From Lingula anatina (lineage: Eukaryota > Animalia > Brachiopoda): a stretch of 64,000 nt of DNA. Shown here one piece after another: positions 18,969-43,299 of the stretch (positions within the stretch are counted from its first letter, which is position 1; each line of letters opens with the position of its first letter). Position numbers and translations under genes: made by a program. The notes under the pieces are model-generated. The model searched no databases. It was not told the DNA's origin and saw only the letters and a list, made by a program, of their open reading frames with translations. The stretch lies in contig CM120642.1 in NCBI GenBank assembly GCA_051362555.1, positions 7,378,001-7,442,000 on the forward strand, given 5' to 3'.

Positions 18969-19328
18969 TTATCTTGCATTAAAGCTGATTGGTTGTGTTG
19001 CATCCACTGGTTTTTCATCCTCCTCAAAATCAGGCTCTGGTTCAAGTTTGTCTGCAATGTGACCTTGACCTGTGGTTTTCAATGCCACTTTGAAGTGCCA
19101 CAATGGTTCCTTGGCACAGTCACAGGACAAGAGTGCCTTGAACATAGCACCGAATGCTTTTTCCCTTGATTGTGCATTAGCTTTTTTAATTTCATCCATC
19201 TGGTTTTCATCAATAACTTCCTTTTCATACAGATAATCCAACAACCGGACTGGGTCGTAGACTTCTTCTTTGACAAATGTTAAGTTCTTGCGTAGACATC
19301 TAAACTCATCTCCCCTATTCTTACATAT
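18969..19328 (-). CDS. Terminal exon encoding a CARD-like death-fold domain
   Basis: LRKNLTFVKEEVYDPVRLLDYLYEKEVIDENQMDEIK..SREKA..LL..FKVALKTTGQGHIADKL fits the six-helix CARD pattern; acceptor tttcag, phase 0. Confidence 0.75.
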   Translation of the reverse strand: MCKNRGDEFRCLRKNLTFVKEEVYDPVRLLDYLYEKEVIDENQMDEIKKANAQSREKAFGAMFKALLSCDCAKEPLWHFKVALKTTGQGHIADKLEPEPDFEEDEKPVDATQPISFNAR

Positions 19329-22300
19329 CTGAAAGACGAATAATAATAAATATCAGCACACACCATGATGAAGTAGTCTCTTTCACATGGAAATGGAAAA
19401 GAATCTGCACCTACAATGTATTACTACTGCCATTTAAATAAACATGGACAGAGCACATTCACATTGAGAAGAGCCGAGGCTCAACAAGGCCGAGACCTAA
19501 ATATGGCGGACATACATGAAAGAAAAACTGCTTAATCCTTAAATGTTCTCTCAATGACATTCAATGGCATTCATTGAGAGACCATTAAAGGGTTACGCAG
19601 CCTGCCTTAAGGGTGGGAGGACATCTACTGAACCACATCTGGGTACATAAAGGTCCTATATGTAGGGAATGGAATTCACTTTCACTTCTACTAAGGATAC
19701 ATTTGACTTCTTTTAAAAAGGAATTCAAGACTTCTTTTTAGTAAAATTTTTGAATAGAATTTTTATGTTTCATAAAAGACTTTTTACAGTAAATGATAAA
19801 GTAGCATTTTTTACTCTATGATATTTGTTTAAATTAATTTTTCCTATTTTTATCAATTTTTTTCTTTTCTTTTTTTTTACTAGCCTTTATTACTATGTAT
19901 TCACTTTGCATTGTAAAGCATCCTGAACAGGTATGGGTTTTAGACTCAAACTATTATTATTATTATTAAAGGTGCCTGCTGTTTCCTTGCTTGGCACACA
20001 TCGGAGTGCTTTTCTAGTTTAAATATATATTGATTTATCTTGCATTAAAGCTGATTGGTTGTGTTGCATCCACTTGTGTATTGTCCTTTTCAAAATCAGA
20101 CTCAGGTTGAAGCAGAGGTGAAATACCTGGTTTGAGAGTGAAATCTGTTTATCGTATGCTTGTCTTCAGTGCCTCTAATGGCGGCTGGGCACTAACCTAC
20201 CCAGGAAGTTGACACCATCTACATCAAGGCAAATCAGGGACAAAAATATGCCAGCCATATTGTAATTTATTGTCAAATACACTGCAGAGAGTAGTGCAAA
20301 TCCACTGCATTTATAAGAACTGGAACTTACGTTTAACACTCCACCTTTAAAATGACCACTGTTCCTTCAAGCCTTTTGAGGAATAAAATCAGAGATGCAC
20401 AGCTGCCAAGATTTGGAAGGGCAAGCTACATAATTCATTATTTCTCAATGTGCATCACACATTGTATTTTGATTATGGAAAAAGGACCATTTTAGGGAAA
20501 GATTTAAGTTGCTGGGAGCAAGTGGTAGCTCCTGACCCAGTGCTTGGACAATACAGATATAGTTGGTTTTTCAAGTCCGTCTTACTATAGCTCATTAAAT
20601 ATGTTTTCTAATCAGGTTTTTTATTGGCTTTCCCAAAGGCAAGTATGGGTCTTCTCAAATAGGAACAAATAATTGTTGACTGCAGCGACAAGAATTTTAA
20701 TATAACGTAATCCTCCTGCTTTTTGTAAAAATTACTAATAAGCCGTACAAAAAACTTTTTGGTTTAGTTTCAATGGGAATATTTTACATGAACATGTTAT
20801 AAAACCTTTTAGGAAATGAGAAAAATGCTTGGCCAGGCCTTCAATATACATGTGGGGTACAAAAAGTTTTCTTTATTTGTTAAAGACACAGGTAGCTTTC
20901 TAAAATCGGCATGATCAGTACCATATACCATAATTATTGTTGTTGTTGTTTTTTTTTTTTTGCACAATTTTGGTGATGTCCGTGACATAACTTTAAAACT
21001 GTATTTTTGTTTTACCTTAAATTTACTGAATGGCTTTGCTTGAATAAGAGGTACATTATTTTTGAAAATTGGCACGATTAGTTTACATAAAAGGTAATTA
21101 TTCCATTTTTTGCACAATTCTAGTGATGTTCACCCCATATATACCAAACCCTACTTTTGTTTTACTTTAAATTAATTGAGTGGCCTTGTTTGGTAAAGCA
21201 GCAGTTTGCTTTCAAAAATGAGCATTGTCAGTTTACATTTATGGTAATTATTCTATTTTTTTAAGGGTGAAATTTTAATTTTACACAGTGGCTTTTATAT
21301 CACATAGATTGGAATTGAATTTGCTAGTTTTTCAATGTACATGTTACCTGTAGTACTTACTGTAGGAGGAAAAGAGTGATTGTACTATTTTAAAGCATTA
21401 TGTAACAGTGCATCAAAATAGGCCAAAACATTATTTTGTGCACTTTTTTCTGCATAATATTTAAACATTTGACAACTTTGCTGCCTTGTCTCCTGTATTG
21501 TGTCTGTATATTTGTCAGCTTTGCTGTCTAGTTGTAAGTTTGAGAATAAAAATAAAACTGCAGCGACAAGAATTTTAATATAACGTAATCCTCCTGCTTT
21601 TTGTAAAAATTACTAATAAGCCGTACAAAAAACTTTTTGGTTTAGTTTCAATGGGAATATTTTACATGAACATGTTATAAAACCTTTTAGGAAATGAGAA
21701 AAATGCTTGGCCAGGCCTTCAATATACATGTGGGGTACAAAAAGTTTTCTTTATTTGTTAAAGACACAGGTAGCTTTCTAAAATCGGCATGATCAGTACC
21801 ATATACCATAATTATTGTTGTTGTTTTTTTTTTTTTTTTGCACAATTTTGGTGATGTCCGTGACATAACTTTAAAACTGTATTTTTGTTTTACCTTAAAT
21901 TTACTGAATGGCTTTGCTTGAATAAGAGGTACATTATTTTTGAAAATTGGCACGATTAGTTTACATAAAAGGTAATTATTCCATTTTTTGCACAATTCTA
22001 GTGATGTTCACCCCATATATACCAAACCCTACTTTTGTTTTACTTTAAATTAATTGAGTGGCCTTGTTTGGTAAAGCAGCAGTTTGCTTTCAAAAATGAG
22101 CATTGTCAGTTTACATTTATGGTAATTATTCTATTTTTTTAAGGGTGAAATTTTAATTTTACACAGTGGCTTTTATATCACATAGATTGGAATTGAATTT
22201 GCTAGTTTTTCAATGTACATGTTACCTGTAGTACTTACTGTAGGAGGAAAAGAGTGATTGTACTATTTTAAAGCATTATGTAACAGTGCATCAAAATAGG

Positions 22301-25300
22301 CCAAAACATTATTTTGTGCACTTTTTTCTGCATAATATTTAAACATTTGACAACTTTGCTGCCTTGTCTCCTGTATTGTGTCTGTATATTTGTCAGCTTT
22401 GCTGTCTAGTTGTAAGTTTGAGAATAAAAATAAAACACAAACAGTGAGGTAGAAAATAAAAAAAACGAGTCTTACATACACATACACAAGGTGAGTACAA
22501 GCATGGCAGTAGTATCCAACTGGAGTACCACACACGCAGACAACGCTCATATCTGTTTTTCTTTTTTATTTTTATGGTGACCAAAGATGCAGGTAATGGC
22601 TATATGTACAAACACACTGTGTCTGTACATATAAATATCTAATAACTTGTAATTTTTCTGTGAAAACTTACTTTTAGCCCTTACATATAATTTTATTCTT
22701 TTAATTGATCAAATTTTGAATTTATACTTTCTATTAACTTGACCTGTTTAATAATAACAAAAGTGGAGTTAACCAATACAGTCTAAACAACACCCACCTT
22801 CATCTCTATGACAACAGCTGAAGAAACATGCCCCTCTTTACTCAAGAACTTCACCAGCTTCAACAGATGTTTCAGAGAGCAGTTCACCTTGCAGAAGACA
22901 ATGTCAAATCTGGATGGCCCATCTGGTCTAAACAAATCCTCAGCACTGGGGATGGTTGGGTCAGGATAATGGGTATGAGTATATCTCAAAACTTTTCTCC
23001 ACACTTTATCCTGCTGGAATGCAGCATTTAACTCATCTGAAACTTTTTTGCTGATAAATTTATAGTTCTTCAATTCTTCTGGTGGTTGATTCCTGTGCTC
23101 TCTGAATTCATACTGACTTGGACTTTGGAACATTTGTGGGCATGACTGACTTTGAAGAGATGAATGGCCTTGACTTAGTGGGAAGATCCCTTGACCTGTT
23201 ACCTTATTATCAGTATGGATAGGGTTTTCAACAGTGTATCTCTCACGATAATAGACTTCCCTCTGAAAAGAGGTACATGTACTTCTCTGGGTTGGTGTTG
23301 ATGTAGTTTCTGACCTGCTGGATTCAGGTGAGGGTGGCAGGGACACTTGACTCTTGCAGCAAGCATACTGAGCAGTAGAATCCTGACCAAACTGCAGGTG
23401 TCCCTTTGATTTTGAAGTACCTGTTTTTTTCTGTAAAAGCAATTTACAAAAACAGTGGTCAAAGCCCCCTTTTTACATCAAAATAAAATGAGAAAATGAG
23501 AAATAAAATAAGAAAAGGAAATTAACTCAATTCCAGAACCTCTCATGAAACATATCTGAAAAATATCTTGCCTATGATGTTCATTTGCTTATTAGAGCAA
23601 AAATAACTCTTCCTTTGAAATTCAAAATTCCCCAAGAAATACATTGTAAGCAACGCATGGAAATATATTATGGTGCATTTTACCACTAAAATGGCTGTTA
23701 TTGTAATAAAACTAAAATCTGTGCTAATCAATCAGGCTTTCGATGCCTTTTTTTCATGGTTGTCAAGGCAGCCTTTGCCAATGACATTGGGATGTCATGC
23801 GGATTCTCGCGTTCATTTAATACAAAAAAAAAAAAAAAAAAAAAAAAACAAATGACAGCATAAGAAAGCAGACGCATGATGCAATCCTAAGCCATAAGTT
23901 TCAAGTTTTTGTACAGTGCATTGGACGACGAAAAGTCCAGAATCGCACACATTGTAGATATTAATGCATTTTGAGCAATAAGACGATATATCTTATGATT
24001 CTTATATTATTGTTATATAGTGTTGTTGTTGTCTGCTTTTCCTGCAGTTTTAAGTAGGTCACCATAAATCGCGCTTGATATCGCATGACTGTGCAATGTC
24101 AGAGAGGGCTCTGTCAGTTAAAATCTCTTAAGAAAGCGAAACGTTTAGGAAAGCAAAAAGCGAAACGTTTAGGAAAAAAACCCAGGACTAACTTTGAATG
24201 CAGGAATAGGGTCGTTGACCATTGGTTACTATGGGAAAATTGCCGTTTACTCTAGGTAAATCCAATTTTTGGCCAAAACGAAGAGTCATTATGACTTTAA
24301 GATATTAATCCAATGTGGCTTTTTTTTAACCTGCTTTGTTTATCCCCAATTTTAACAAATTATTTATTTTTGCAAAGTTTTATATGTTTATATCAAAACT
24401 CATCATTTTTTATCACAAATTTACCTCCTCTGCTTCTTCAAACCATATGTGACAATGCTCAACAGAAAATGGTCGACGGCAGCTAGAGCACCCTATTTTA
24501 GGATACTTTGGCAAAGACTCCTTCAGATCTGGACTCAATTCCATCCAGTTCTTACATTCAGTGTGATAGATGAGACAACTGGTGCTAAGATCTGGACAAT
24601 ATAATCTGGCTACCTTTGCAAGCTGTTCTTCAATGAATTCCCGTGCTGCAACATACAAATCTTTGGAGGAGTGGGGCTTGTTTAAATCCTGCATCTCAAG
24701 ACGGATGCTGTATGGTCTTTTCCACAAGGTGAGCACAAGCATGGCAGCAGGATCCAATTGCAGTCGCACACAGTTGGCAAGTAGACAACCCTCATATAGT
24801 TCATATCTGTGTAGACAAGCAGCAACTAGCCTATGAAATAGACAGTTTGGGAGAAATTTCTGCTGGGACACATAACATAAAGAAGTTTGAAGAATGTCCC
24901 TATCTTGGCTGCATATTGGTGTTTCCTCTTGGACCTTCTTGGCTTGACAAGGGACAAAATACTGGGCAGAACCAGACTTGCTGCACTTGGGATGTTTACT
25001 GATAATATCAAACTTCTCCATGACGTGCAAAATTGCCTTCTTGTTTTCATAAAGAGTAGGGTCATGATGGACCTTCTTATCCCAAACTGCACTGACCAAT
25101 TTCTCATCCAAGATGGCTTTTTCATGGAGCTTTTCCCAAAATTCATGTGTCTTGGAACAGCGATCCTCATACTTAGGCAATGTTATTATGGAGCTAAAAG
25201 CATTAATAAGCCACTGTGGATCTAAAATTACAATGTCCTCAAGTCCTTTTTCATCAAAATAGATCACCTCTCCCAAAGCATGAAGAAACACTAGACATGC

Positions 25301-25984
25301 CTTGACTTCTGTCAGGTCTGTCATGGAAATGGGTTCCTTTCCTGCTAATCGTAAGACATCATCCAGCTTCATAACCATTTTCTTACTTTGTTTGCGCAGC
25401 TGAGACTCTAATTCCAGCCATTTGCAGGGATGGTCTTCTCCCCAATAAGGCTGTTCTCTTGCAATGCCCATTACGCACTCTTTGAGGACATTCAGTTCAG
25501 GATCATTTTCATCAGTAGCATTGACCACGAAGTATTTCTTGTTATAAACATGATGGTTGTGGCTGTGCTTCCCTTTCAAATGTTGCCGTACATTTTTGCA
25601 AAATACTTCAATCTGGAAAGAAGTATAAGATAGAAAACTTTAGTTCACACAATTTTTCACGTAAAATGGCACATTACAGCTGGTCCTTCCAGTAGAAAAA
25701 AGAACCATGCAGTTAAAATAAATGTCTTACTTAGGCATAAATATGAAAATGAATAAAAATTTGACCATGTCCAGTTTTATACATGGACTCTGTTTAAGTC
25801 CCACAGGCAACCCAACACAGGGTTCTGCTTAAACAAAGCACCAACATCAATGGCACAGTGACCACAAGACGATATTACTAGTTTATACATTTGGCGATTA
25901 GTCAGTATTTTACTATTTACTTAATCACGGTAAAATCTTGAAAATTAATGTTTTTAATTGTGTAAATCTGACTAATTTTTCAAA

Positions 25985-26043
<59 letters not shown>

Positions 26044-28072
26044 CACCATTACCTCAGGTTCTGTAAGCTTATCTTTGTGGGTACCAACAATAATCACAGG
26101 TGGACATTCACTTTCGTCCACAGTTTGGCCAGTGGTAAAGCTGTGGACAGAGTCCAACCAGTAGTCACTGTGTTCTGAAGAAGACAGAATTGTCCAGGAT
26201 TAACAAAACTGGCACATGATACAGAAATTATAGGACTTCATATCTGAAGACCTGAAATAAAAGTTCATTCAATCTACAGAATTGTTAATGAGGACCATGA
26301 TTATGTGTCCATAATCATCAAAGAAATGAATTATGAAATTTCTATTAAATAACTTTTAATTATTAATTTTATTCTTGAACATTAACACTGACAGAGATGA
26401 TTTTATTCCAACATCATAAACAAGGCAGCAAAGTTGTTAAATATGTACCGACAAAAAGCAGAAAATAAAAATGCACAAAATAGGATGCTATCAATGCATA
26501 ATGTTTAACTGCATAGTCAGCATCTAACTTTAATTCTGCGCAACAGGTAATGGCGATGAAGGTAACAAGACAAACATGAAACTACCTTTAGCAGTCTGTG
26601 GCACTGTTTTGTCAAGCACTGGGCCCTCAGGTGACTGTTTGTAAGTGGATATCTCTTTATCAAGTTCACTGCTGGCATCCCATACCAGTAAATATATTGC
26701 TTTTGGTGACAGGAAAGTTTGGTGTGTAGTGTAATATACATGCTGGCCCCCAAAGTCCCAAATTGAAAGCTGAAATTTGCACTCGTCTCTTTCCACATCA
26801 TCTTGACCTTCAAATAATCTCTTTACTACTTCATGGATCTCCTTAGCATCTTCTGAAATGTCAGTCTGATCAATGTCAAATTCAAGATCAGATTCAAGAC
26901 ATGAAGCCTGTTTTGACAAATTTTCATCTGGATTTTCACCTGACTCCATCTCTACAGAGCGTGCCATCACACAGATTTTTGACTGTTTAGGTAGACTTGA
27001 AATATTACATTCCAATTCAGGTGCTTTTTCACCGCAGGCATTATGCTTAAAGCCTGTAAACAATTTTAATACACATTGCATTGGTGAACATGACAATACT
27101 CTTTATACACATTTCTATTACTAAAATGTAAAGTAATGTCAAATTTTTAAAATATATGTTATCCACATTAAATCTTCCACTTGAAGCTTACTTGATAATT
27201 ATTATAATAACTGATGTTTACTTTGAACAATCTTGAAAGCATACCTGTAAAATTCCTTTAATAATTTAGAAAAAATAAGCAATCTTTTAATATCTTTTCA
27301 CACAAAAACTTACTTTTTTTAATGGCTTCAGCTATAAGCGAATGACTTAAGTCATGTTCTTTATCTGAAATATATATATGTAATGTATATAACATAGCCT
27401 TTATTTTATACATCTGTTTTTAGAATCTACTAATGAATGATACATGATTGTGCACATATTCCTACAATTGCAGCTTTATAGTTTGTTATATATGACCCCA
27501 AACTCATGCAGATGAAAGAAGACCCCAAGTGCAACTTCTTGCCATGTTATACATGCATGGAACTATGCAGCTTAAGAATACTGACATAGAAATATTTTTA
27601 CCCAGAATACTACTTTTTTTTTTACAAAATTTTGGTCCATTTTACCTAAGTATAAGTCAAAGGTATAATCCAATGCCACATTTGAATTCTCCATGTGTGA
27701 TTTACGGTAATGTACCATGAATTTTGTACAGAAGAAATTAATTAAAGTAAGAAAAAGATTTTTTTGGTCAAAAATCATGAAATGGAGGGTATTCAGAAAT
27801 TCCAAATGTTTGAATTTCACAAAATTCTGTCATTTATGACTGGAAGTTGTCTGTCCCTCACTAGGCCTTATGATATCTTTTCCTGACAATCTCTGAGGCA
27901 GTCATTGTATAAAAGGCAATTGTGACCCAACATGGAAACATGTACTTGCACCTGTGCGGACCAAGGTGCAAGATAATGATGACCCAATGATCGGTACTGT
28001 TGGCTAGGGACACAAAACAGTATCGTAATCAATAGTGTCAATTTTCAAGGGCGATTCTTGCAGCCAGAAAGT

Positions 28073-28109
<37 letters not shown>

Positions 28110-28331
28110 AAAATGATCCTGGCACTCAGAAAGGAGTGGACGAAGGGAGAGACGGCTGGCGCTTAGCACCTACCCTGACCAGATAACCTTCATTGTGGAA
28201 GCCGGGCTTGGTGTTACTGTAGCTCCTCTAGCTCCGTGTACTGTAGCCGAAATGACAGCTGATCAGTGTCTATGGCAACCAGGTTGCCTTCATCAGTGAT
28301 AAGCTTCTACTGCAACCAGGCCCCCGTTTCA

Positions 28332-28374
<43 letters not shown>

Positions 28375-31300
28375 TCAGTCGGTTTCCCTTACTATGAGTT
28401 TGGTCGCCAACGTAATAAAGTCCTTACGTCACAAAGTCCCATTTCACGAAGAATCTAAAAGATGATACGTCGTTTTTTCTTAGCTGCTAGTCGATGATGT
28501 CTAGCCTCCTCGGGAGGAGACTTAGGTCAGCAAGCTGAACTAAAACTCAGTTAATGAGAGCATAAACAACAAAAATTTGGAAAGAACATACCTCCTTCAA
28601 GATATTGTGTAATAATATCCTTGAATCGCACTGACATTTACTGAATATTTATAGAAAAAATAAAATGCATTTTCACCCAGCTGATAGCGGGTTTGTTATG
28701 TTTTTTGACTGCTAGACATCCGTCAGTTATATGTAAGTTAAACTAATCAATTAAATTCAAAAACAAACTTTGTTTATGTTTTGACTAATTTTTATTGTTG
28801 ATAAACGATCATTCTCGACCGAAAGAGACCATGAAACATCATGTCTTGTGAAACTTTAGGAATTTTTACATCTTCGTTTCACGAGCTAGGACTTAAGATT
28901 CTTTGTGAAACACTCCTAGTTGACTGCAGTGTAGTCGACCTAGCTAGGTCACTCAGCTCGAGCTAGTCACCTACGGACTTAAGATTCTTTGTGAAACTGG
29001 GCCCAGGTTCATTGCCTTCACCGTTGAAGTCGGGCGGAGCTTCACACACCGCACATCGGTATGTACTGGTAAAGAGCACAGGTACATGTAGCCTTCTCCA
29101 CAGCAGTCAAACAGTGTATTAAGGTCTCTCTCCGCCATGCGCTGGGACCAAGATGACCACTGATGTCTACGATCAAATATACTAGGTTTGGGGGGGGGGG
29201 AGATTTATGGCCCCTGGGTGCTGGGCTCTTTATCAACAGTTCTGTGGTTGCATTTTGCAACCACTTTTTTTCACTCAGACAACCCAACCTTGACCAGCAG
29301 CTGTCAGACAACAAAAATGATTTCTTAGCACATAGTTGCGCCAATGCATAAATGAAAAAAGTGTGTACATTTTGTCATTAAATCGTCTTTAAACAAACAT
29401 GCAAGTAATCGTTAGGAAACCAAATACAGTAACGAAGTCCCTTGAACTATTATAAAAATTTCCTTATCGTAGCGCTAAGATTGCTCACGATCCCCCTTTG
29501 ACGATTTTCCAGTCTGTCTTTTTACTGTCTCTCTCAGATCGCTAACGATAAGGCAATTTTCATACTAGTTCAAGGTACTAATTAAAGACAAGAAAGCAAC
29601 TAGAGGATCACAGAGGCGATGCCGCCTCCGGATATTGTACCACCAGCGCATTCGTATGGACCCCCCCCCCCCCAAAAAAAAGGGGCACCACCACCAGTCT
29701 TGTGCTTGACAAGCTCTATAAAATGCAATCAACAAGAGTTCTCAATATATGCAAAAAATATAACTAAAAATGGTACAATCAAGCAGATTTTCAAATGGAC
29801 CTGCATTTTCCTACCATTGATCACTCCTGTGATTCTCTAGACAAAAGGCCTATTGGTTTTCCTTGAAATGTGTTGTCAGTGGTACATATATGCTGACAAA
29901 AGAGAAAACCTATGGGCAACATCGGGCACATCTCTGCTACTTTTGAAGATATTAGGGGCAAGAAAATATGCAAAGCTCAGTTCATGGTGAAAAAGAAGGT
30001 CAAAGGTCAATTTCAATATCACAGTTAGATTGCAAGTGTATTACTTCCTATTCAAGTTCAATAGTAACTATGGCCCTATCTCTGCCAGTTTTGGAGATAA
30101 AAGGGAACAAATATTTGCAAAGTTCAGTTCATGGTAAAAAGTACCGGGGTAGGTCAAAGGTCAATTTCAAGGTCACAGTACAGTAAATTGCCGGTATATG
30201 ACTTCCTATTCAAGTTCAATAGTAACTTTGGACTTATCTTTGCCAGTTTTGGAGATAAAAGGGAACGGAAATTTGCAAAGTTCAATTCATGATGAAAAGT
30301 AGGTCAAAGGTCAATTTCATGGTCACACTTAGATTGCCAGTACATGACTTCCTATTCAAGTTCAATAGGAACTATTGCTGAAAACTCTGAGGGCAATGCA
30401 GACCAATTGGCCTGCTTAGATCTGAAAATTGCAGGCCCGGACAAGATATTGCCGGCCCGAATGTTTTTTGCATTAATTTGTATTTTACCCTATTTCGCGT
30501 AAAAATTGCGCACTTTTAACTTCTGCTTTATACACTTTAAAAGGACAGTTAAGTAGCAATTAGGTGATTAAAAATCAAATAACTGCTCTTTCAATAGATC
30601 TTTTATTGAAGAGACATTTTACTGCTCAGATAACATCTGGGTAATATGACCTAAAGGTAAACTAAAGGCCAAAAAGGCATCAAAACTCACAGAAAACAAA
30701 TTTTCCATAGGTAAACTGCAGTTTTCCTGGACTAACCTTAAACCAGGCCTTAATTGAGCTAAATCATCCGCCTAAACTACCCAAGAGCACTTTTCCAAGT
30801 TTTGAGTTTCTTACAGCAGCTTTAGACAAAGTGTCAATTATCCCAACCTACACATGACTTTAACTTGCATTAAATAGAGCTTGACAGTAAATTGTATTTT
30901 TCAAACAAATTATGGTATTTACCTAACTCTTATGGTTGAGGAATAAGTTTATTGCTTTTTTAAGAAATCATAGACTTGCCCTTCAAGAAATCGACGGAAT
31001 ATAGCTCTTTTTCAAATCTGAATGGGCACTGTAAAAAACGTATGATAGCTAAAGCTAAAGCTCATAGGTGCACATAGCACATAGGTGTGATATTATGTGA
31101 AGAATAAGTGTTGTAAAATTCAGTCCAAGCAGTTGCGTATATTTTGAGATAAAACGCTTTAAATGTGCAGCAAACCGTAACGCTAATCCCTTCAAGAGCT
31201 CGACGAAAACCGGAAGTGCATCGTGACGTCACTTGTACTTGGAAAGCTGCTGGGTGATTTTCCGATGAGAAATATTTCGTAGCTTATACAAATGTTCAGA

Positions 31301-33444: not shown

Positions 33445-33502
<58 letters not shown>

Positions 33503-36500
33503 AAATATTCTTCAATCGGTGTTGGCAACAAACTTCCATTTCCACTATTTCCCTGATGTAGATGTCAAGAACTTTATATAGTTATCCACTATTTTTCATT
33601 TTTAAATTGTCAATTTATATTACTGTCTTTGGGATTTTAAAGAGATGCTTGTCTAAACATGCCAGTGGATGCAAAATAGACATATTAAAGATATTGTTTA
33701 TTTTTGATTGTTCTTCATTGACTGGTCATTTCATGAGATCCGTTTGAACAACAAAAGCTTTATAACTGCAACTAATTTTTCTTTATAAATGTTTTACTAT
33801 TAAACTTTATTTATCAAGAAGTAAAATAAAATCATTTGACATTTCATTTACTGATGGATGCATATCAGAACATTAGACTTGCCTGCATCTTTGTTTTAAT
33901 TTCACTAAATTTATAGTAACTAATTCAAGAGGCTCGAGTTTGATCATAAAATTAATTTTCTTCATTTATTTACTTATGGAAATGATGCTATAGAAACTAA
34001 TGGATAGCATTCACAAAATGTAAGCTTCATTGTGATCAGATCTGACTTAAATGACAGGAAAGATGACAAAAAGTATTAAAATGGACAACATTTAAGTTGA
34101 AATTTTCACAAAATCATTGCATTTTATTGACAGTAAAACATTTGCTGTGTCTGTCATGCTCTAAAATAAATAAAATATAACTCATTTAGTTTTCTGAAAT
34201 ATATATCATTATGTGATAAACATTGTTGTAAAATACCAACTCTAATTTCTACCTTACTTGCAATTATCATAACTGACCACCCGGCATGGAATGTTACAAA
34301 TGCAACTGAACATTGTGTATGCTTAATAGGTGTGGAAGGTTCACCAGTATTTCATAATCAGGTACACGTTATATGGAGATAGGAATGGAACAAGAAAATT
34401 TGTCTGATATAGTTACCGTAAAAGACTATTAATCACAAGTACTAGGGCTGTATTACATTAATAAACCATGGTGTCCTGTAAACTACACACAAAACTTACT
34501 TATTTTAAAAAACTTACTTATATTAAAATATGACCCTCGACCGTTGATGATACGGTCTATACGGTGATGCCATGGAGCCAGTGACGAGCCGGGTGCGAGT
34601 TGTCTGCAGTTGGTCCCTTTCTTTCTACAAAATACTGCGACCTGATCTGTACTTTAAATATGTCGGCACTTAGTCCTTTTAATCAAGCCCAACTTCTCTT
34701 TCTTCACTTCACTCGCCAGTCGTGTCCGTCATCCATGGTCATTTTCCTGGTTTTCTCGCTTAACTTTAACTGCAATGCACCCTACGACACAACATTAGCA
34801 ATTCGCCATTGCGTTGCTCTATCTCAAATTACATGACAACGCCAAATTTTACCCAATGCAATCCTATAACATAGACTTGTGCCCGACCGCGAGAGAAGTT
34901 TCAATGGCAGATTTTAACCCCACCTCTCGTGAAATCTCGCTCCAATCCAGGTCTCGTTTGACGTCATCTGCTGCGCAGATGTTCAAAATAGGCTATCCCG
35001 GGCATTTAATTTTGTCATGTTTGGACAAGGGTGCATTGCAATGAGTGCCACAACTAGACCCCAGCACCGACAAAGCCCAAATTTTACGTGGAACGAGTTG
35101 AGATTATAGGTGATCTAAATCCAAGAGATGGGTACGGAGGCCCTTACCGTCTTGGAGGAGAAGCGGTAACGGTAACATGGCGGCGGAGTCGGCGGAACAA
35201 TAGGGACGGGACTAAAACCATGTGTACCGCCGGCGCCTACGCTGGTGGTACAATAATGGCAATCTTTATTGCAGCTCTTTATTCCTTCTCTTGTCCTGTT
35301 ACTGATGTCCCTACCTTTGACGATGCTATTGTGCAGCTCAGCAAAACTTCAAATCACTATCTCACACCAAGTAAAGAAATGATAGCGCGACAGTGCAGCT
35401 CTTAATAGATTTTTCTTTTATATTAATGAATGGTGATGACAATGTTGTTTTGCGTCCTAAGCTAACTGTACTGATCCTTATTTTGCACCTTGGGCCGCAC
35501 ACATAGTATTCAGGTAAAGGTATGCAAGGGCAACATTATCGACTTTACTGTTTGATGTTTATGAGCCCGAAAATTGCACATGGTCGATTTTTCAGGTGTA
35601 CAAAATTCACAAAAAAACTTCTTACTGGTCGAAATTCATGGTCCATAAAAAACTCTAGACTTCCGATCTTAAGATCATCTGAAATTAAGGAGCCGTTAGA
35701 AATTCATGTCACATTACCATATGCTTACATTACGTATGCACGTATGTGTGTGTGTGTGTATGTATGTGTGTTTGCTTGGAGAGAGAATCAAATAAAACCT
35801 GGCAACATACCATTTGCATTCCAAGACATACACCTGTTTACACACACTGTTGATACATTAGGATCAACTTCGACACCATTGGTTTCAGAGTCATTTTGTG
35901 GGTCATAGCGCTGTTTCAGTAGTGCTTTTCTAAGTCTTGTTTTTCCTGCTCCATGGTGCCCCAGCAACATGAGTCTTATACGACAGACTTTAGTTTTACC
36001 TTCTTTCAGAGCTTTGTGATAAATCTTGAGGAATTCTGGTCCTAAAGTTTGAATTTCAGACGGTACATTTGGATTGTTTCCTGCAAGAGTTTACAGAAAT
36101 TAGTTTGCAAAACAGCACGTATGCAAATATAGTATGATCTATTAAACATGAAAAATATACCACAACAATGAATATTGATCAGTAGGTCTAGCAAATATCC
36201 TGTCTGTTGGAATTTTAAACACCTTGTATTATATACCTGAGATGTGCAAATGGTGAAACTAAAAAAAGATATGCAGATAAAATATTCTCTTTTTATCCAC
36301 TTTGAATACTTTATGAATTCACGTTTTTCAGGACAAAAATGTGCATTTATAAAATGGCATCTAGACAACGTTAACTTTACTCACTGTGTTGTCTCTAGAG
36401 TAAATATTTGTGTTTTGAGCTCTGTGGGAATTTTACACATTATCACAAATATTAATTTTTCATAAAAATATTGTTAAGTGAAGCTTTACTGTCATTGAGG

Positions 36501-39500
36501 GCACATCAGTTTTGCAATTCAGCAATACAGTTTGCCATGGAACTAATCTAATCCCTGGATCAAATTTGCTATTAACCATGAGGACATAAAGGGTTTGGTG
36601 CCTAGACTTAGTGCGACAATAGATCATAGAAATCATGCATGATTACCATGACTAACATTTTATCAAAATTTACTTTGTCTCCTCTGTGATATATAGATTT
36701 GAAAGGTTTTCATAATTTTAAAACAGACACAAGGCAGCAAAGCTGTCAAATGTACAGACAAAAAGCAGAAAATAACAAGGCAGCAAAGCTGTCAAATGTA
36801 CAGACAAAAAGCAGAAAATAAAGTGCACAAAATAGGATACTGTCAATTCTGATGCAATAATGTATTATGCTTTACTGCATAGCCAACATCAAATTTTAAT
36901 TCTGCATAACAGTGGATTAGGATGAAAGTAAAATGTGTAACAAGCATTAGACCGAGTTCCCATACCTAGATCAATCTAACAGGATCAATCCAACTCCAAG
37001 GGGTTTCTCACTAAATTGCTTTCAGCTTAAGTGGCTTAGGATTCTGGCATGCCAGTTTCAGTAGGCGTGACAGACAGCTAAGCCACTTAAATTGATTGCA
37101 ATTTAGCGAGAATTTCCTTGGAGATAGATCGATCCACAGTTAGCATGATAGGGTCTGGAAATAGTCCCTAAGGCTTCAGGCTGATAAGAGTTAAACTTTG
37201 GAAATGCCAGAATGAGATAAAGTGAAAATTTCACAAACAAAAAAAAATTGCTTAGACTCAATAAAAAAAAAATATATATATATATATATAATTTAATAGA
37301 GCTGTTTTTTTAATTTGGGCTGTATGTCAATCCTAAGAATCATTCTTGTATAGAATATGTTACAAAGTAACAGTACAGGGCTCCTGGTGGATGGGAGTGA
37401 TAAGTCACATCTTGAAAATGCCAGTTTGAAAAATTAAAAAAGAAAAAATTACAAAAAATGTTCCACTAAAGCTGACATTCGGTCTAGCTGCATTACCATG
37501 ATATAAATCATCCAACTTGAGTTTAAACAGTGTAAACAACTCGCAGAAATATAATATATTTTGTTTTACCACAAAAAAGACAGTCATAGCTATTATTCTG
37601 ATATCTGAACTTGTCATCAGACCATGTGACCTCCATAGATGGCTATACTTTGAAATAATTTCTTAAGAGATTATAACAAAAAAAAAAAAAAACACTTTTT
37701 AGAAAAAAAATTAATTATTTGCCAAAAAGAACAATTATTATCCCTTTAACTGCAAAGTCAAGTTGCAAATATTGCACAACAGGTAGTATCAATAAAAGTG
37801 AACTGTTACATGCCCTTGAGAGTTATAAGTCCCACACTGAAAATGCCAGTATGTGAAGGATCATCATCATCAGTCTGTCCTTCGTTACCGAAGATGACTG
37901 CCTGAGTTGAGCTAGAGGCCCTTCATAGGCAGGCCCTCACGTGGGCTTTGAGACCAGCTTGGGATTTGCAGAAGCACTGACATCTGTTGCATTGAAAGTT
38001 GCATGGTCTGGCTGGTGAGTGTCGACGATCATGGGAACGTTGGTATTCTTGCTGGCGCTGGTCTTCAACAGCTGACAGGGTCTTTTTAAGTAGGGCATGC
38101 CATTGCTCTCTCTGGAGAGCCTCTGCCTCCCAGGTGTCTAGTGGAATGCCAGCCCTCTTCATGTGGCGCCTTATAACATCCTTGAAGCGTAGAGCTTGTC
38201 CACCATGGCTCCTTTTTCCTTGGTATAGTTCAGAGTACATGTATAGTACAGCTTTTGGCAATCTGTCATTTGTCATCCGACAGACATGTCCAGCCCAACG
38301 GAGCTGTGACACAGTTATTAGGGCTTCAGCACTGACTGTGTGAGCACGTCGAAGTACTTCAACATCAGAAATATGGTCTTGCCACTTGATATTGAGGATT
38401 GCACGAAGATGACGGAGTTGGAGTCTTGTCAAAGCCTTTATGTGTCTGCGATAAAGAGTGATACACTCGGTGGAATAGAGGAGGCAAGGAATGACTGCTG
38501 CTAAATAAACTTTCACCTTGGTATTTATGGTGATGTCATGTGAAGGATAAAAATTTCACAAAATGTACAACAGAATAACTTGGTCAATAAGATTACAGTT
38601 TCAGGACCATATGTCAGAGTTCAAATTCACATAATGAAAATCCCATTATGTGAAAAATGATGACAGTGCATAAAATAATATAATTACACAATGTTTAAAG
38701 ACATAAAAACCAACAAAACTGCTTATGTGGAAAAATAGAAAATGCACAGTGCTTCTGGTAGATGGGAGTTGAAAGTGACATCTTGAAGATGCTAGTGTTT
38801 GAAAAGTAATTAAAGAAAATGTAAAATAAAACATAACAAAAAATTCCAATAAAGCTACTATTCAAACTTTTTATCTAGCTGTGTAATTACTAACATGATA
38901 TGAATAACCCTTTTGAGTTTGAGAATAATAACGCACTGTTATTCATCTTTAGCATTAATGTAAGCCTTACACAAAGTTTTTCTTTTGTAAAATTATTTTC
39001 AATATTAAATAACATTTACCTGCATAATAATCATCAATTCCTAATTATGTGACACAGTTAAGAGAGCTAAACCTATGGGACTTTACAATGAAATCTCAAC
39101 GTGTATTTATGTAATCTTATTGAATGGCCACTTGAAAATTAATTAAGCAAAGTACTTTATAACCCTAAAATAACTTGAAAATTAATTAAGCAAATTACTA
39201 TTTAACCCTGAATTAACATACTGCCCGCTATCCATATACATTTATTGCACCATATAGCACTCTGTATAACTGCATTGCTTCCTAAACAGAAAACAATCAC
39301 ACTGGTTTTCCAACACAAGCTGCACTTCAGTCTTATGAAACTTTTCAGTAAGTTTGAGTATCATAAGTAATATGGTTTTCTCTTAATCGCTATCCTGGCA
39401 GCAGTGTCCAAAATAGGATTTTCCTCAACTTTCATGTAATATAACATAATACTAAACAGCATAATGACCGTCAATTTAAAAAATAAAAGTATCATGGATA

Positions 39501-41621
39501 TTCAGAAAATGTGATATGGGAAGGTCTTCAAGGCCATGGAAGTTCAGGGTCACACTTTCAAAATGCCAAAATGTAAACAAGAGATAACTGTACTGAAATG
39601 ATTTTCTTTCCATTTTCAACACCTTTTTACATAAAACAAAATAATCAATTTACTGTCATTTTTAAATGATCAACTAGGAAAATTGTTGACATAGGAAAAA
39701 TATCATTAGAACAATTTTAAATGTCCAATTTACTCTATTCTGAGATTCTGAACATAGTGAATGATTGAATCTGACAAACTGCAATGATGAGTTCCTTTCG
39801 ATTTTTGATACTTTATTACACAATGCACGATAACAGGTTTACCTTCATTTTTATATAATCAATTAACAATATTGTTAAGAAGCAGAAAATGTCAAAACAG
39901 CACTTTTACATATATATCTAATTAGTTCCATAATGAGACTGTTAACATGCCTAAGAATTAAATCTGAAGAAAAACCACTTATATACAAAAAGGCTAATAA
40001 CTTCATCAAAAATTAACTGATCAAGCTTATTTTCAAACTTGATCTGTATATTAGTCAGATTGATCACTCCTGTGAGCTGCAAGACAAAAGGCTGATTGGT
40101 TTTCCTTAAAATGCGTTATCATTGTTGCATATATGCTGAATAAGGGAAAAAACAGCATAACTTTTGTAAAAATAGTCCAATCATGCCAATTTTCGAACTT
40201 GACCTGCGTATTATGAATATTCATCAGTTTTGTAAGTTTCAATCCAAAAGGAAAAACATTTTTACATTTATCTTGTTATCGGTGTTATAAAAATGCTGAA
40301 AAAATTGAAAAAAAAAGGATAACTTTCATAAAAATTGCCCGATCATGCTGATTTTCAAACTTGACCTGCGTATTATGAATATTCATCAGTTCTGTAAGTT
40401 TCAAGCCAAAAGGTAAAATGGTTTTCCACCTATCGTGTTATCGGTGCTGCATATATGCGGAAAAAAGTGAAAAAACATCATAACTTCCCTAAAAATGGCC
40501 TGATCATGCTGATTTTCGAACTTGACCTGTGTATTATGAATATTCATCAGTTCTGTAAGTTTCAAGCCAAAAAGTAAAACGGTATTTCACTCATCGTGTT
40601 ATCGGCGTTGCATATATGCTGAAAATAGTGAAAAAACAGCATAACTTCCCTAAAAATGACCCGATCATGCTGATTTTCGAACTTGACCTGCGGATTATGA
40701 ATATTCATCAGTTCTGTAAGTTTCAAGCCAAAAAGTAAAATAGTTTTCCACTTATCGCGTATCGGTGCTGCACATATGCTGAAAAAAGTGAAAAAACAGC
40801 ATAACTTCCCTAAAAGTGACCCGATCATGCTGATTTTCGAACTTGACCTGCGGATTATGAATATTCCTCAATTCTGTAAGTTTCAAGCTGAAAGAAAAAA
40901 ACGTTTTTCCACTTATCGTGTTATCGGTAAAAGTGCACGGCGACGACGGCGACGACAGACGCAGGTGATGGCTATATGTACAGACACATCTGTGTCTGTA
41001 CATAAAAATGGCCCGAATATGCTGATTTTCGAACTTGACCTGCGTATTAAGAATACTCATCAGTTCTGTAAGTTTCAAGTCAAAGGAAAAAAAGGGTTTT
41101 CCACTTATCGTGTTATGGGTAAAAGAGCATGGCGACAGTGACGACAACGACGGCGACGACAGACGCAGGTGACGGCTATATGTACAGACACATCTGTGTC
41201 TGTACTTAAAAATCCATGTCAACATCCCTGTATACAACTATAATGAGCTGCAGTATTCACATGAGCTGCACCCGTGGTTTCTTAGCAATAAGTGTCCCAA
41301 CTCCAGATATTTGTTCAAAATGTAGATCATTAAAGGCAAAGTAAAAAGAAGACAGGAGTGTCAAGTTCTGTCGCACAAAAAGCCAATCCATAATAATACA
41401 CATATTAATAAGCAGTTCTGAACCTTCCTCATGCTCCATATTCAAGCTCTTCAATGATGATAGTCTTGAAAGCGAAGTATCCTCACTTCATCACTCGCTC
41501 TTAGAGGTGTTGAGTGGTGTGAATCTTTGCTGTCACTGGGTGATCAAAACAGACAGCAGCAAAGAGTTTAAGTGTGGTTATCACACGGACTGATAAAGAA
41601 AAAGAAATCCTGAGGCAATCT

Positions 41622-41662
<41 letters not shown>

Positions 41663-42263
41663 CACTCACCGATGGTTGTGCTTATGGTAGCAGAAGGGGG
41701 TGGTAGTGGAACTCTTTCTTTCATTTCACTTTCTTTACTTTCTTCTTCATTCTCTTCTATGGGGTTACTTTCTTCTAGCTCTGGCGTGGAATTGTTACTG
41801 CAACATAAATATTAAGTCAGGCTTCTCTGTCTTATTTTGGACTCCTTCAAGCAAAAATAGCTAACAAAAATTGAGTAAAACAAAGATAAATTAGTATTTT
41901 TTTTCAAAATGTTTTTCATTTCATTGCTTGTCAGAGTGAACTATGCATCAATTATATGACAATCACCGTACACAGTAGTGTGAGATTAGTATTTGCTTGA
42001 TTACTGATTATATTTCCATAGAGTTACCTTGTTGGCTCTTCTTCCTTCTCTTTCTTCTTTTCTTTCTCTTTCTCCAATTTTTCCTTTTTCTTCTTTTTCC
42101 TTTTCTCACTTTTCCTCTTTTTCTTGCTTTCTTCTCTGCTCTTCTCCTGTTCAATCTCCTCCAATAAAATGGATGCATTTTTGTCGGCTTTAGCAGCTTG
42201 CAATTGGCGGTCTTTGGCACTCACGATGATTTCCATGCACTGGTGACATTTTTTGAGCAGCTC
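18969..42263 (-). CDS. ROCO-family protein, 5'-partial. Exons in transcript order: 42263-42028, 41797-41670, 36041-35811, 27364-27314, 27053-26586, 26174-26053, 25612-24425, 23430-22798, 19328-18969
   Basis: All junctions are AG/GT with matching phases (2,1,1,1,1,0,0,0); total 3417 nt, no internal stop. Roc motifs: G1 GHHGAGKT, G2 SETNGVEV, G3 IWDFGGQHVYYTTHQTFLS, G4 VGTHKD. COR motifs: YWGEDHPCKWLELE, LVFLHALGEVIYF, ILDPQWLI. The join of the first two exons to the Roc exon is inferred from phase only. Confidence 0.8.
19528..19600. repeat. Short inverted repeat (hairpin)
   Basis: ctgcttaatccttaaatgttctctcaatga / tcattgagagaccattaaagggttacgcag. Confidence 0.65.
20029..20180 (-). pseudogene. 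Degenerate duplicate of the 3' end of the CARD exon
   Basis: Encodes LQPESDFEKDNTQVDATQPISFNAR*, versus LEPEPDFEEDEKPVDATQPISFNAR* in the terminal exon; about 45 nt identical across the stop. Confidence 0.7.
20679..22436. repeat. Near-identical 878-bp tandem duplication (2 copies), intronic
   Basis: actgcagcgacaag at 20679 and 21557; the only difference I noticed is in a (gtt)n/poly-T tract. Confidence 0.95.
24425..25612 (-). CDS. Exon with the end of Roc plus the COR domain
   Basis: 396 open codons carrying COR-A/COR-B motifs (DPQWLINAF, YFVPC, LPNCLFHRLVAAC). Confidence 0.9.
25988..26040. repeat. (TA)n microsatellite 13 bp from a splice donor
   Basis: Direct reading. Confidence 0.95.
27490..27850 (-). 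mobile_element. Deleted, diverged fragment of family Z
   Basis: gaccccaaactcatgcagatgaaaga and ttttggtcaaaaatcatgaaatggagg resemble the reverse complement of 12850-13480. Confidence 0.6.
28320..29003. mobile_element. PIF/Harbinger-like MITE
   Basis: TIRs gcccccgtttcacaaa / tttgtgaaactgggcc with 3-bp TSD CAG. Confidence 0.65.
29437..29578. mobile_element. Small foldback element
   Basis: ccttgaacta..aaaatttccttatcgtagcg mirrored by cgctaacgataaggcaatttt..tagttcaagg. Confidence 0.6.
30376..31681. mobile_element. hAT-like non-autonomous TIR element inserted in a Z monomer
   Basis: tgctgaaa / tttcagcatg ends, ggcccg/gccgg subterminal motifs; the monomer sequence actat appears on both sides. Confidence 0.55.
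32581..35001. mobile_element. Unclassified 2.4-kb insertion into Z copy 2
   Basis: Z sequence ggtagataa|gcatttaattttg is split here; the insert has short direct repeats aggctgtccggg / aggctatcccggg at its ends. Confidence 0.55.
36729..36820. repeat. 46-bp tandem duplication within a locally dispersed intronic repeat
   Basis: acaaggcagcaaagctgtcaaatgtacagacaaaaagcagaaaata x2. Confidence 0.85.
36948..37170. mobile_element. Foldback MITE-like palindrome
   Basis: ctccaagg..ctaaattgc..ttaagtggcttag mirrored by ctaagccacttaa..gcaatttag..ccttggag. Confidence 0.7.
37862..38537 (-). mobile_element. 5'-truncated RTE-clade LINE (RTE-BovB-like C-terminus)
   Basis: QLRWAGHVCRM..RLPKAVLY..GKRSHGG..RFKD and a C-terminal CxxC..H zinc finger; (gat)n tail; 11-bp TSD atgtgaaggat at 37851 and 38538. 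Confidence 0.9.
40015..41210. mobile_element. Second Helentron-type satellite-bearing element (family W), monomer about 160 bp, about 6-7 copies, terminus duplicated
   Basis: ctgattttcgaacttgacctg recurs about every 160 bp; (cga/cgg)n microsatellite and hairpin tgtacagacaca-tc-tgtgtctgtac occur at about 40975 and 41180, with a solo terminus at 22585-22632. Confidence 0.75.
41670..42263 (-). CDS. Two exons resembling the post-ankyrin region of Mask/ANKHD1/ANKRD17
   Basis: ELLKKCHQCMEIIVSAKDRQ..AAKADKNASILLEEIEQEKSREESKKK and VPLPPPSATISTTIG match my recollection of ANKHD1 (KKCHQC.E.IV.AKDQQAAEANKNASILL.ELDLEKSREES; VPIEPPSATTTTTIG); canonical splice sites. Confidence 0.8.
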
Positions 42264-42284: not shown

Positions 42285-42368
42285 AACCAGAGGATCAGAG
42301 AGGCGATACTGCCTCCGGATATTGTACCACCAGCTGGAATAAGCGCATTCCTATGGACCCCCCCCCCC

Positions 42369-42400
<32 letters not shown>

Positions 42401-42429
42401 ACACCACCACCAGTCTTGTGCTTGACAAG
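42285..42429 (-). mobile_element. Family Z copy 3, terminus only, cut off by a LINE
   Basis: agaggatcagagaggcgat..gcctccggatattgtaccaccagc..cttgtgcttgacaag as at 29600-29713. Confidence 0.8.
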
Positions 42430-43299
42430 ACAGTGACGAGGACATGAGTAGAGACATAGGAGGTTGCTAGTTGATTGTGGATATTGAACATGATTTTCTT
42501 CGCGTGGTTTCTTCGACGTTCCTCTAGTGAAACCCAGTTCAGCTGTTCCAGTACTTCACAGCGATTTGAGCCAGGAAGGGCCCCCAGTATATTAAGGCCA
42601 GCTTGATACTGGAGGGATGATAGCTTTGATAGGTTATGTAGAAACGCAGTGCTATAGAGAACATCGCAATAATCAAGCAAATGAGAAATGTACGCATTGT
42701 AAAGTATGTTAAGTACTTATATCGTAGAGTTTTAGAAAGCGAATTTAAAGGATTTAGTGCTTTTTGGGCCTTGCTTAAAGTATATGTAAAATGCTCGGAA
42801 CAGTCAAGTTTATGATCAAGAATAAACCCAAGGTGTTTGTGGTATTTTTTCTGTGTTATAGCCGTGTTGCATAGAATAAGTGGACTGTACTTTTCTACAT
42901 TTTTTTTCGTAGTAAAAATCACTTCATTGCACTTTTTTAAAAAATAATTTCCACTTCACTGACCATGCTTCAAGGTATGAGATATCAGACTGGAGAATGT
43001 CATGAGCTTTCCTGTTTCGGGTAGACGGGAGAAAAAATCGAAGTATCATCTGCATATATGAAGCAGTGCGAGATAAGACCATCAGGTAGGTCGTTTATAT
43101 ACAGAAGAAATAGAAGCGGGCCGAGTATACTTCCTTGTGGAACACTGGTATTGATGAAGTTTGTCTCAGAGACCTTTGAAAGGGTACCGTTTATGCGCAT
43201 TCCGATTTTCCTGTTGTTCAGATAAGAGGCCAAGAAAGAGTGCAGTTTACTTCTAAAACCATAGGTTATAAGTTTCAGCAGTAAAAGACTGTGAGGCAC
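42430..43299 (-). mobile_element. Degenerate CR1/L2/Jockey-group LINE reverse transcriptase fragment
   Basis: VPQGSILGPLLFLLYINDLP, YADDT, KHLGFILD, LNWVSLEERR; frameshifted; broken at the (AFDT)VPH motif by an LTR. Confidence 0.85.

What the first reader, a model, noticed from the sequence alone, without database searches (positions are those of the whole stretch)
18969..42263. Chimeric ROCO gene: Mask/ANKHD1-like exons spliced in frame to Roc-COR, death-like domain and CARD
Seen: nine exons with canonical sites and consecutive phase matches give 1138 open codons; the second Mask-like exon ends in phase 1 and the Roc exon begins in phase 1. No KH-domain exon of a normal Mask is visible downstream. 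Established: invertebrate ROCO genes diversify by domain shuffling, and death folds are immune/apoptotic adaptors. Inference: a partial Mask duplicate donated the N-terminus (probably ankyrin repeats upstream of the window) to a kinase-less, CARD-tailed ROCO. This could be an NLR-like sensor-GTPase-effector.
Basis: partly seen in the sequence, partly recalled or inferred. Interest (0 to 1): 0.8.

Follow-up and report, generated by a model that had tools for sequence, protein, structure and literature searches.

The report
Mask exons capping a death-fold ROCO
In what is likely a lamp-shell (brachiopod) genome, an intact gene for a GTP-switch protein ending in a cell-death adaptor domain lies just downstream of two altered exons copied from the housekeeping gene Mask; these would give it a nuclear-import tag if spliced on, but that splice is unproven, and expressed sister copies begin with a different exon.

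Summary
The anatomy is real. Seven minus-strand exons (36080-18969) encode an intact kinase-less ROCO protein (Roc GTPase, COR, a possible death-fold, CARD), 65-95% identical exon by exon to Lingula anatina LOC106170327. Two exons 5.6 kb upstream (42263-41670) are a diverged copy of the Mask/ANKHD1 nuclear-localisation segment, with intact splice sites and a matching phase. The fusion is not shown. RNA reads on the Roc exon come from sister copies, none from this copy, and 10 reads enter it from a non-Mask exon that is absent from the window. No ankyrin, KH or start exon lies in the 21.7 kb upstream, which is mostly transposons. For the fusion: this copy is under purifying selection and needs a 5' end, the Mask exons kept their frame through two in-frame indels, and related invertebrate ROCO models carry pieces of other housekeeping genes (CBP, Med25, RhoGAP) at the same lead-in. 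I put a transcribed, copy-specific Mask-ROCO chimera at about 50%. New variant of a known kind; the ankyrin sensor and the immune role are inference.

The parts
42028..42263 (-). Exon 1, Mask/ANKHD1-derived (phase 0 in, 2 out): segment right after the second ankyrin cluster, with the basic NLS; 2-residue insertion, 3-residue deletion, 4 substitutions at near-invariant sites
   Evidence: NLS position from PMC6861002 passages
41670..41797 (-). Exon 2, Mask-derived acidic/Pro-Thr linker (phase 2 in, 1 out), ending at what is likely the ancestral Mask intron position
   Evidence: (11 of 16 residues match fish ANKHD1; single-exon homologue P0002 loses similarity at the same point)
36081..41669 (-). 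Putative 5589-base intron holding the Mask/ROCO breakpoint; A38 run, 161-bp satellite, LINE fragment
   Evidence: splicing across it not observed
35811..36080 (-). Exon 3: family lead-in helix and Roc P-loop (GHHGAGKT) and switch I; acceptor 36080, phase 1 to 1
27314..27364 (-). Exon 4 (51 nt), Roc insert
   Evidence: tblastn of P0014; 4 reads of a sister copy leave 35811 into a homologue of this exon
26586..27053 (-). Exon 5: Roc insert and G3 motif (WDFGGQ)
   Evidence: Pfam Roc E 1e-8; 79% to P0014
26053..26174 (-). Exon 6: Roc G4 region (VGTHKD)
   Evidence: 95% to P0014
24425..25612 (-). Exon 7: end of Roc and COR
   Evidence: Pfam COR-A E 8e-21; 86% to P0014
22798..23430 (-). Exon 8: low-complexity linker and a conserved ~100-residue helical domain, likely death-fold
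   Evidence: 86% to P0014 in the domain; for, searches give no support
18969..19328 (-). Exon 9: CARD and stop codon
   Evidence: Pfam CARD 28.9 bits over cut-off 23.9
42285..63336 (.). Transposon nest upstream of exon 1 (short repeat 21 bases from the acceptor, LINE RT piece, Mutator-like ORF, Gypsy-like RNase H/integrase, large inverted duplication); no coding exon of this gene found
   Evidence: 17650 of 21716 bases assigned to repeats

Best explanation
An intact kinase-less ROCO gene (Roc GTPase, COR, CARD) sits 5.6 kb downstream of two diverged Mask exons that are likely spliced onto it in this copy only, replacing the exon that sister copies use, which would give a GTP-switched death-fold adaptor carrying Mask's nuclear-import segment. 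Origin (inferred): a duplicated ROCO cassette, which opens with a phase-1 acceptor, came to lie behind a partial Mask duplicate broken in the intron after its phase-1 donor. Working (inferred from ROCO and death-fold biology): the captured basic segment brings the protein to the nucleus or to importins, or serves as bait for factors that bind Mask; Roc-COR dimerisation, set by GTP, clusters the C-terminal death folds; the CARD recruits a caspase or adaptor and triggers cell death or immune signalling. Shown: exons, domains, purifying selection on the Roc exon, a different upstream exon in sister copies. Not shown: the junction, expression of this copy, its start exon, any ankyrin repeats, any activity.
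For: (1) The ROCO part is alive or only recently dead: 3090 coding bases without stop or frameshift (a no-selection simulation keeps the frame in 6% of runs at 2% and 0.35% at 4% divergence); against the sister reads 15 of 29 listed differences on the Roc exon and 6 of the 9 shown by every covering read are silent, where 22-28% are expected (p 0.0005-0.006 and 0.006-0.019). (2) It needs a 5' end, and the sisters' upstream exon has no match on the minus strand of the window (best 7 mismatches of 23). (3) The Mask exons differ from 10 homologues at 6 of 46 near-invariant columns plus an insertion, yet both indels are in frame and all four splice ends are canonical. (4) If an ordinary phase-1 exon lay further up, inclusion of exon 1 (phase 0) would shift the frame, so intact sense-strand splice sites fit use better than skipping (inference). 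(5) Of 21 candidate acceptors between 36000 and 41660, only 36080 opens a phase-1 frame longer than 28 codons. (6) In 5 relatives inspected, a piece of CBP (two), Med25, RhoGAP or an SH2+EH protein stands directly before the same lead-in motif.
Against: (1) Ten reads in run X6 enter the Roc exon from a non-Mask exon; agreement 0.91, no Mask-type loose end listed in any of the 4 runs. (2) No read from this copy: at 36061 and 36064 all 17 of 17 covering reads carry another letter, at 36047 21 of 21. (3) No start or ankyrin exon in the 21.7 kb upstream, 81% of which is repeats. (4) The closest annotated protein (P0014) has no Mask part and starts inside the Roc exon; none of the 150 best ROCO representatives has a Mask piece; three database searches returned no fused protein up to 2000 residues. 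(5) Substitutions alone would leave the two short Mask exons open and spliceable in 14-37% of neutral simulations, so their intactness is modest evidence. (6) The phase match is 1 in 3 by chance.
Confidence: 0.5

Rival explanations
1. Silent, recently rearranged chimera: a ROCO copy that was functional with the family's normal 5' exon lost it, came to lie next to a Mask fragment, and is now untranscribed behind a transposon nest; the in-phase join is coincidence.
For: No read of this copy in the 4 runs laid at letter resolution; no start exon in 21.7 kb; a repeat ends 21 bases from the exon-1 acceptor; frame survives in 24% of simulations at 1% decay.
Against: The Mask exons had already diverged from canonical Mask with frame kept, which needs an earlier coding role; only about 6% of each run was read, and the sampled animals may lack or not express this copy.
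Confidence: 0.24
2. The ROCO gene is spliced from the family's ordinary upstream exon lying beyond position 64000 (intron over 28 kb), and the Mask exons are a skipped passenger or belong to a separate truncated Mask transcript.
For: Sister copies use a non-Mask exon; this gene already has an 8.4-kb repeat-filled intron.
Against: Two sense-strand exons with canonical sites inside that intron would tend to be included and shift the frame (inference); no terminal exon for a separate Mask transcript was recognised.
Confidence: 0.16
3. Assembly artefact: Mask and ROCO pieces were mis-joined through the satellite or LINE in 36081-41669.
For: A 1.2-kb 161-bp satellite and several dispersed repeats lie in the interval; an 880-bp 99.9% tandem duplication elsewhere in the gene may point to assembly trouble.
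Against: No N in the window; a mis-join would not explain why the Mask exons are diverged from canonical Mask.
Confidence: 0.06
4. This is the organism's only Mask gene, whose KH half was replaced or lies beyond a nested ROCO and adenylate cyclase.
For: No intact Mask elsewhere could be checked (no genome held).
Against: Changes at residues shared by 10 of 10 homologues from annelid to fish; deletion of this segment is lethal in Drosophila (PMC6861002, passages), so a sole copy should be conserved; no KH exon down to the window's start.
Confidence: 0.04

Closest known systems
Lingula anatina LOC106170327 (XP_023932245.1, P0014), uncharacterised ROCO
   Same: Same Roc-COR-linker-helical domain-CARD order, 65-95% identity per exon, no kinase.
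   Different: The annotated model starts at a Met inside the Roc exon and has no Mask segment; it has a longer linker in exon 8. Orthologue or paralogue not resolved.
Kinase-less invertebrate ROCO proteins with death-fold tails (Trichoplax set of Civiero et al. 2014, PMC4104024; Aplysia ROCO-TIR, PMC9334734; AP-GTPase conflict systems of Kaur et al. 2021, PMC8195603)
   Same: Roc-COR core flanked by variable N-terminal parts and death/CARD-type effectors; among 150 nearest representatives 3 have a kinase, 52 a Death domain, 2 a CARD.
   Different: None of the 150 carries a Mask piece; their ankyrin repeats are only 21-42% like Mask's (12 proteins); tandem death-like domain plus CARD found only in P0014.
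Mask / ANKHD1 / ANKRD17
   Same: [quoted passage not shown]
   Different: No ankyrin or KH exon in the window; diverged at invariant sites; followed by ROCO exons.
Plant NLRs with integrated domains, and animal NLRs (recalled, not from a call)
   Same: Works-like analogy: NTP switch, death-fold effector, and a piece of a host protein fused in as possible bait.
   Different: GTPase (Roc-COR) instead of NB-ARC/NACHT, effector at the C-terminus, no LRR; no bait function tested.
DAPK1, LRRK1/2, MFHAS1
   Same: Roc-COR tandem (LRRK2 and bacterial Roco structures hit at E 4e-12).
   Different: No kinase, LRR or WD40 in the exons found.

Membership tests
ROCO (Roc-COR GTPases) | Roc domain with P-loop, G3 and G4 motifs | tested here: met
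   GHHGAGKT, WDFGGQ, VGTHKD at model residues 162, 327, 414; Pfam Roc on two exons
ROCO (Roc-COR GTPases) | COR directly after Roc | tested here: met
   COR-A 74.8 bits, cut-off 35.3
ROCO (Roc-COR GTPases) | GTP binding, hydrolysis and dimerisation | not testable with these tools
   needs biochemistry
LRRK / DAPK subfamilies | Protein kinase domain | tested here: not met
   No kinase in the exons after Roc or in P0014; an N-terminal kinase beyond 64000 cannot be excluded
Mask/ANKHD1 | Conserved post-ankyrin coiled/basic NLS segment | tested here: met
   19 of 34 residues K/R in the basic stretch
Mask/ANKHD1 | Two ankyrin-repeat clusters upstream | tested here: inconclusive
   None within the 21.7 kb available; sequence beyond 64000 not held
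Mask/ANKHD1 | KH domain downstream | tested here: not met
   No hit in six frames of the window with Mask proteins and a 2420-position Mask profile
Death-fold superfamily | C-terminal CARD | tested here: met
   PF00619 above cut-off in the window and in P0014
Death-fold superfamily | Second death-fold domain in exon 8 | tested here: inconclusive
   Low-confidence model (pLDDT 57): first 16 of 50 rows are DED/CARD/PYD, top Z 5.7, rmsd 3.6, 90 aligned; Atlas lead to Death clusters at 0.83-0.86; no Pfam hit, profile test no better than shuffles
NLR (STAND) receptors | NACHT or NB-ARC ATPase | tested here: not met
   Core is Roc-COR
Integrated-decoy receptors | Host-protein domain fused into the receptor transcript | tested here: inconclusive
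   Open in-phase model; no read from this copy; sister copies use another exon
Integrated-decoy receptors | The fused domain is bound or modified by a pathogen factor and this activates the receptor | not testable with these tools
   ANKRD17 is reported to bind viral proteins (PMC7693620, passages); which region is not stated there

The most novel reading that the evidence does not exclude
Marine invertebrates run a family of GTPase-based integrated-decoy immune receptors: a Roc-COR-death-fold cassette with a fixed splice entry that captures pieces of pathogen-targeted housekeeping proteins (CBP TAZ and NCBD, Med25 ACID, Rab, RhoGAP, and here Mask's nuclear-import segment), each copy with its own bait; this locus is a young capture caught beside sister copies that still use another front end.
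Probability: 0.2. Interest if true: 0.8.

Novelty: new variant of a known kind. Interest (0 to 1): 0.5.

Why it matters
If the junction is real, it is a recent, datable case of a cell-death/immune-type GTPase switch acquiring a new front end from an essential housekeeping gene, with sister copies as built-in controls. Together with the CBP, Med25 and RhoGAP pieces seen at the same position in amphioxus, scallop and other models, it makes a testable claim that animals have a ROCO-based counterpart of plant integrated-decoy receptors. If the junction is not made, this is an ordinary member of an expanded invertebrate ROCO family next to a Mask fragment.

Tried and rejected
No whole genome is held, so an intact Mask elsewhere and the sequence beyond 64000 could not be checked. 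The run index listed no RNA holder: 'no RNA holder listed', no evidence either way. The Mask-like exons themselves were never laid with reads. P0017, listed in P0014's cluster, shows no similarity to P0014 or the window and no Mask part. The peptide end of the sisters' upstream exon matched none of the proteins fetched. A Death-domain profile from 32 relatives did not detect the exon-8 domain (HHalign probability 1.2%). A second model, of P0014's version of that domain, came out mixed alpha/beta at pLDDT 57 and gave only scattered matches with Z under 5 and no death fold among 50 rows; a missing match from a weak model excludes nothing. Look-ups of earlier scan notes by sequence, place and most word sets returned nothing. 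Literature searches listed no paper on a Lingula ROCO, a Mask-ROCO fusion, or integrated decoys in animal ROCOs; subscription papers are not in the library and no supplements were read (the source data of PMC8195603 may list such architectures). No complex was predicted, as no binding is claimed.
Full report
1. What the sequence shows. The window is AT-rich, intron-containing animal DNA without N. On the minus strand nine exons with AG/GT ends join in phase into one open frame: 42263-42028, 41797-41670, 36080-35811, 27364-27314, 27053-26586, 26174-26053, 25612-24425, 23430-22798 and 19328-18969. Introns are 230, 5589, 8446, 260, 411, 440, 994 and 3469 bases.

2. The ROCO part. Pfam finds Roc on exons 3 and 5, COR-A on exon 7 (E 8e-21) and CARD on exon 9 (28.9 bits, cut-off 23.9); no kinase. 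The G1, G3 and G4 motifs are present. The only close protein is Lingula anatina LOC106170327 (P0014), 81, 65, 79, 95, 86, 74 and 68% identical over exons 3-9. From this I infer a lingulid brachiopod. P0014 starts at a Met inside the Roc exon and has no Mask segment. The last 100 residues of exon 8 are conserved (86%). A single-sequence model (pLDDT 57) ranked death folds in its first 16 rows (top Z 5.7, rmsd 3.6, 90 aligned) and the Atlas gave Death clusters as a lead (0.83-0.86), but Pfam and a profile of 32 related Death domains did not detect it. I call it likely death-fold, unconfirmed.

3. The Mask part. Exon 1 returned 13 proteins; 7 are ankyrin-repeat Mask proteins, 1 is a KH-bearing Capitella Mask piece and 5 are short single-exon frames. 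It is the segment just after the second ankyrin cluster, which holds the conserved NLS whose deletion is lethal and keeps Mask cytoplasmic in Drosophila (PMC6861002, passages read). Against 10 homologues the copy differs at 6 of 46 near-invariant columns and has a 2-residue insertion; both indels are in frame. It is thus a diverged duplicate, not canonical Mask (inference; canonical Mask of this organism was not available). Exon 2 ends in the same few residues as fish ANKHD1 and the single-exon homologue P0002. No other Mask exon is in the window: tblastn with 13 proteins and a Mask profile over six frames found only these, while a control profile found 10 of 10 thirty-residue amphioxus ankyrin pieces. 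Pfam on 123 minus-strand frames, 119 of them upstream, found only Gypsy-type domains (frames antisense to the Mutator ORF were left out). About 17650 of the 21716 upstream bases are repeats or transposon pieces.

4. RNA. Nine raw-read runs with the same species label were offered; I laid 6 of them, about 6% of each (25% of X7). One search (X1, X4, X6, X7) showed low depth on exon 3 but was swamped by repeats. (X4, X5, X6, X2; 35600-36520; 85% likeness) laid 101 reads, 3 of them 95% or more alike, on the exon and a neighbouring repeat. Exon reads are all of the orientation expected for a minus-strand transcript, are confined to 35811-36073, and fall into at least two sequence types. At nine positions every covering read in all four runs differs from the window (for example 17 of 17 at 36061 and 36064, 21 of 21 at 36047), so none comes from this copy; they are sister copies or a diverged lineage. 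Four reads (X2) leave 35811 into a homologue of the 51-base exon, confirming that intron. Ten reads (X6) break off at 36073; their loose end continues the exon to 36080 and then reads into 23 bases that match Mask exon 2 at only 5 positions (my count) and have no minus-strand match in the window better than 7 mismatches. So the acceptor is 36080, the family default upstream exon is not Mask, and the junction in this copy is neither shown nor refuted.

5. Is this copy alive? Of 29 listed differences between window and reads on exon 3, 15 are silent, and 6 of the 9 fixed ones; 22-28% would be expected without selection (p 0.0005-0.006 and 0.006-0.019; the tool showed 40 of 63 difference rows, and one search had run this test with miscounted inputs). 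The 3090 coding bases have no stop; simulation keeps the frame in 24%, 6% and 0.35% of runs at 1, 2 and 4% neutral divergence. The copy has therefore been under selection along its own line and needs a 5' end. The Mask exons survive substitution-only simulation in 14-37% of runs, so their intactness adds little apart from the two in-frame indels. Among 21 candidate acceptors in 36000-41660 only 36080 opens a long phase-1 frame.

6. The family. A search of 1.84 billion representatives with P0014 gave 5819 hits; I scanned the best 150 (Pfam, at E cut-offs 1e-4 to 1e-7). Three have a kinase, 52 a Death domain, 2 a CARD; others end in caspase, TIR, HEPN, GT4, OTU or trypsin domains. N-termini vary widely and include pieces of housekeeping proteins: CBP NCBD (P0043, amphioxus), CBP TAZ (P0133), Med25 (P0056, scallop), SH2+EH (P0060, scallop), half a RhoGAP (P0136), Rab/Ras (P0101, P0102, P0120), PARP14 RRMs (P0081), Bcl-2 (P0031) (names). 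In the five I read, the piece stands directly before the same lead-in motif that opens exon 3. These are gene models; P0043 and P0056 have several RefSeq isoforms, but I did not check their splicing. None of the 150 has a Mask piece, and ankyrins in 12 of them are 21-42% like Mask's.

7. Mechanism. Best reading (0.5): a copy-specific exon capture gave a nuclear-import segment to a Roc-COR switch with death-fold outputs. Nucleotide-dependent dimerisation of Roc-COR is the published model (PMC4104024, passages); clustering of CARDs to recruit caspases is recalled general knowledge; a bait role is suggested only by analogy and by reports that ANKRD17 acts in NOD1/2 and RIG-I signalling and binds viral proteins (PMC7693620, passages and reference titles). 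Rivals: silent rearranged relic (0.24), ordinary upstream exon beyond the window (0.16), mis-assembly (0.06), sole Mask gene (0.04).

8. Literature. Seen as passages: PMC11378527 (ROCOs as candidate immune receptors, exon shuffling in brown algae), PMC4104024 (Trichoplax ROCOs with CARD and death domains), PMC8195603 (AP-GTPase+COR conflict systems with variable effectors, lineage-specific expansions in sessile marine animals including brachiopods), PMC9334734 (Aplysia ROCO-TIR), PMC6861002, PMC7693620. All others only as search listings. Kinase-less ROCO with death folds is known; a Mask fusion, or captured housekeeping pieces read as decoys, was not found in searches, which cover open-access text only.

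9. Verdict. Observation essentially right with one corrected acceptor; interpretation possible, unproven, and weakened by the sisters' different upstream exon and the lack of any ankyrin exon. New variant of a known kind; interest 0.5.

Noticed in passing
window 47437-50457 (+): Intact 1007-codon Mutator-like transposase frame with a PHD finger and an OTU-like domain (weak Pfam hits); OTU domains also appear in several related ROCO proteins.
   Followed up: no
window 8859-10601 (+): Large last coding exon of a membrane adenylate cyclase (581 codons, Guanylate_cyc E 3e-46), convergent with the ROCO gene.
   Followed up: no
window 20679-22436: 880-base tandem duplication at 99.9% identity in the last intron: recent duplication or assembly artefact.
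   Followed up: no
window 20017-20112 and 22485-22552: Stray copies of the 3' end of the CARD exon (87.5%) and an inverted piece of the COR exon (77%) inside the last intron, signs of local rearrangement.
   Followed up: no
window 53026-61069, 43759-45214: Large inverted duplication (about 3 kb at 91-92%) with scattered further copies; broken Gypsy-like RNase H/integrase at 61278-63336 and an SGNH-hydrolase frame at 51497-52114.
   Followed up: no
window 13515-15230, 29930-30375, 39987-41213: Satellite arrays with 146-, 158- and 161-base units.
   Followed up: no
window 35002-35260 and 12555-12794: A dispersed repeat with a 9-base GC-rich unit is very abundant in stranded RNA (depth up to 824, mostly one strand).
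   Followed up: no
proteins P0043, P0056, P0133, P0136, P0060, P0081, P0101: Invertebrate ROCO models with CBP, Med25, RhoGAP, EH/SH2, PARP14-RRM or Rab pieces at the N-terminus; worth a survey as candidate integrated decoys.
   Followed up: partly
protein P0017 (XP_023932244.1): Accession next to P0014 on a contig of the same length, ending in a PARP14-like RRM (weak); it may be the split front end of P0014's gene, as P0081 joins such RRMs to Roc-COR.
   Followed up: partly
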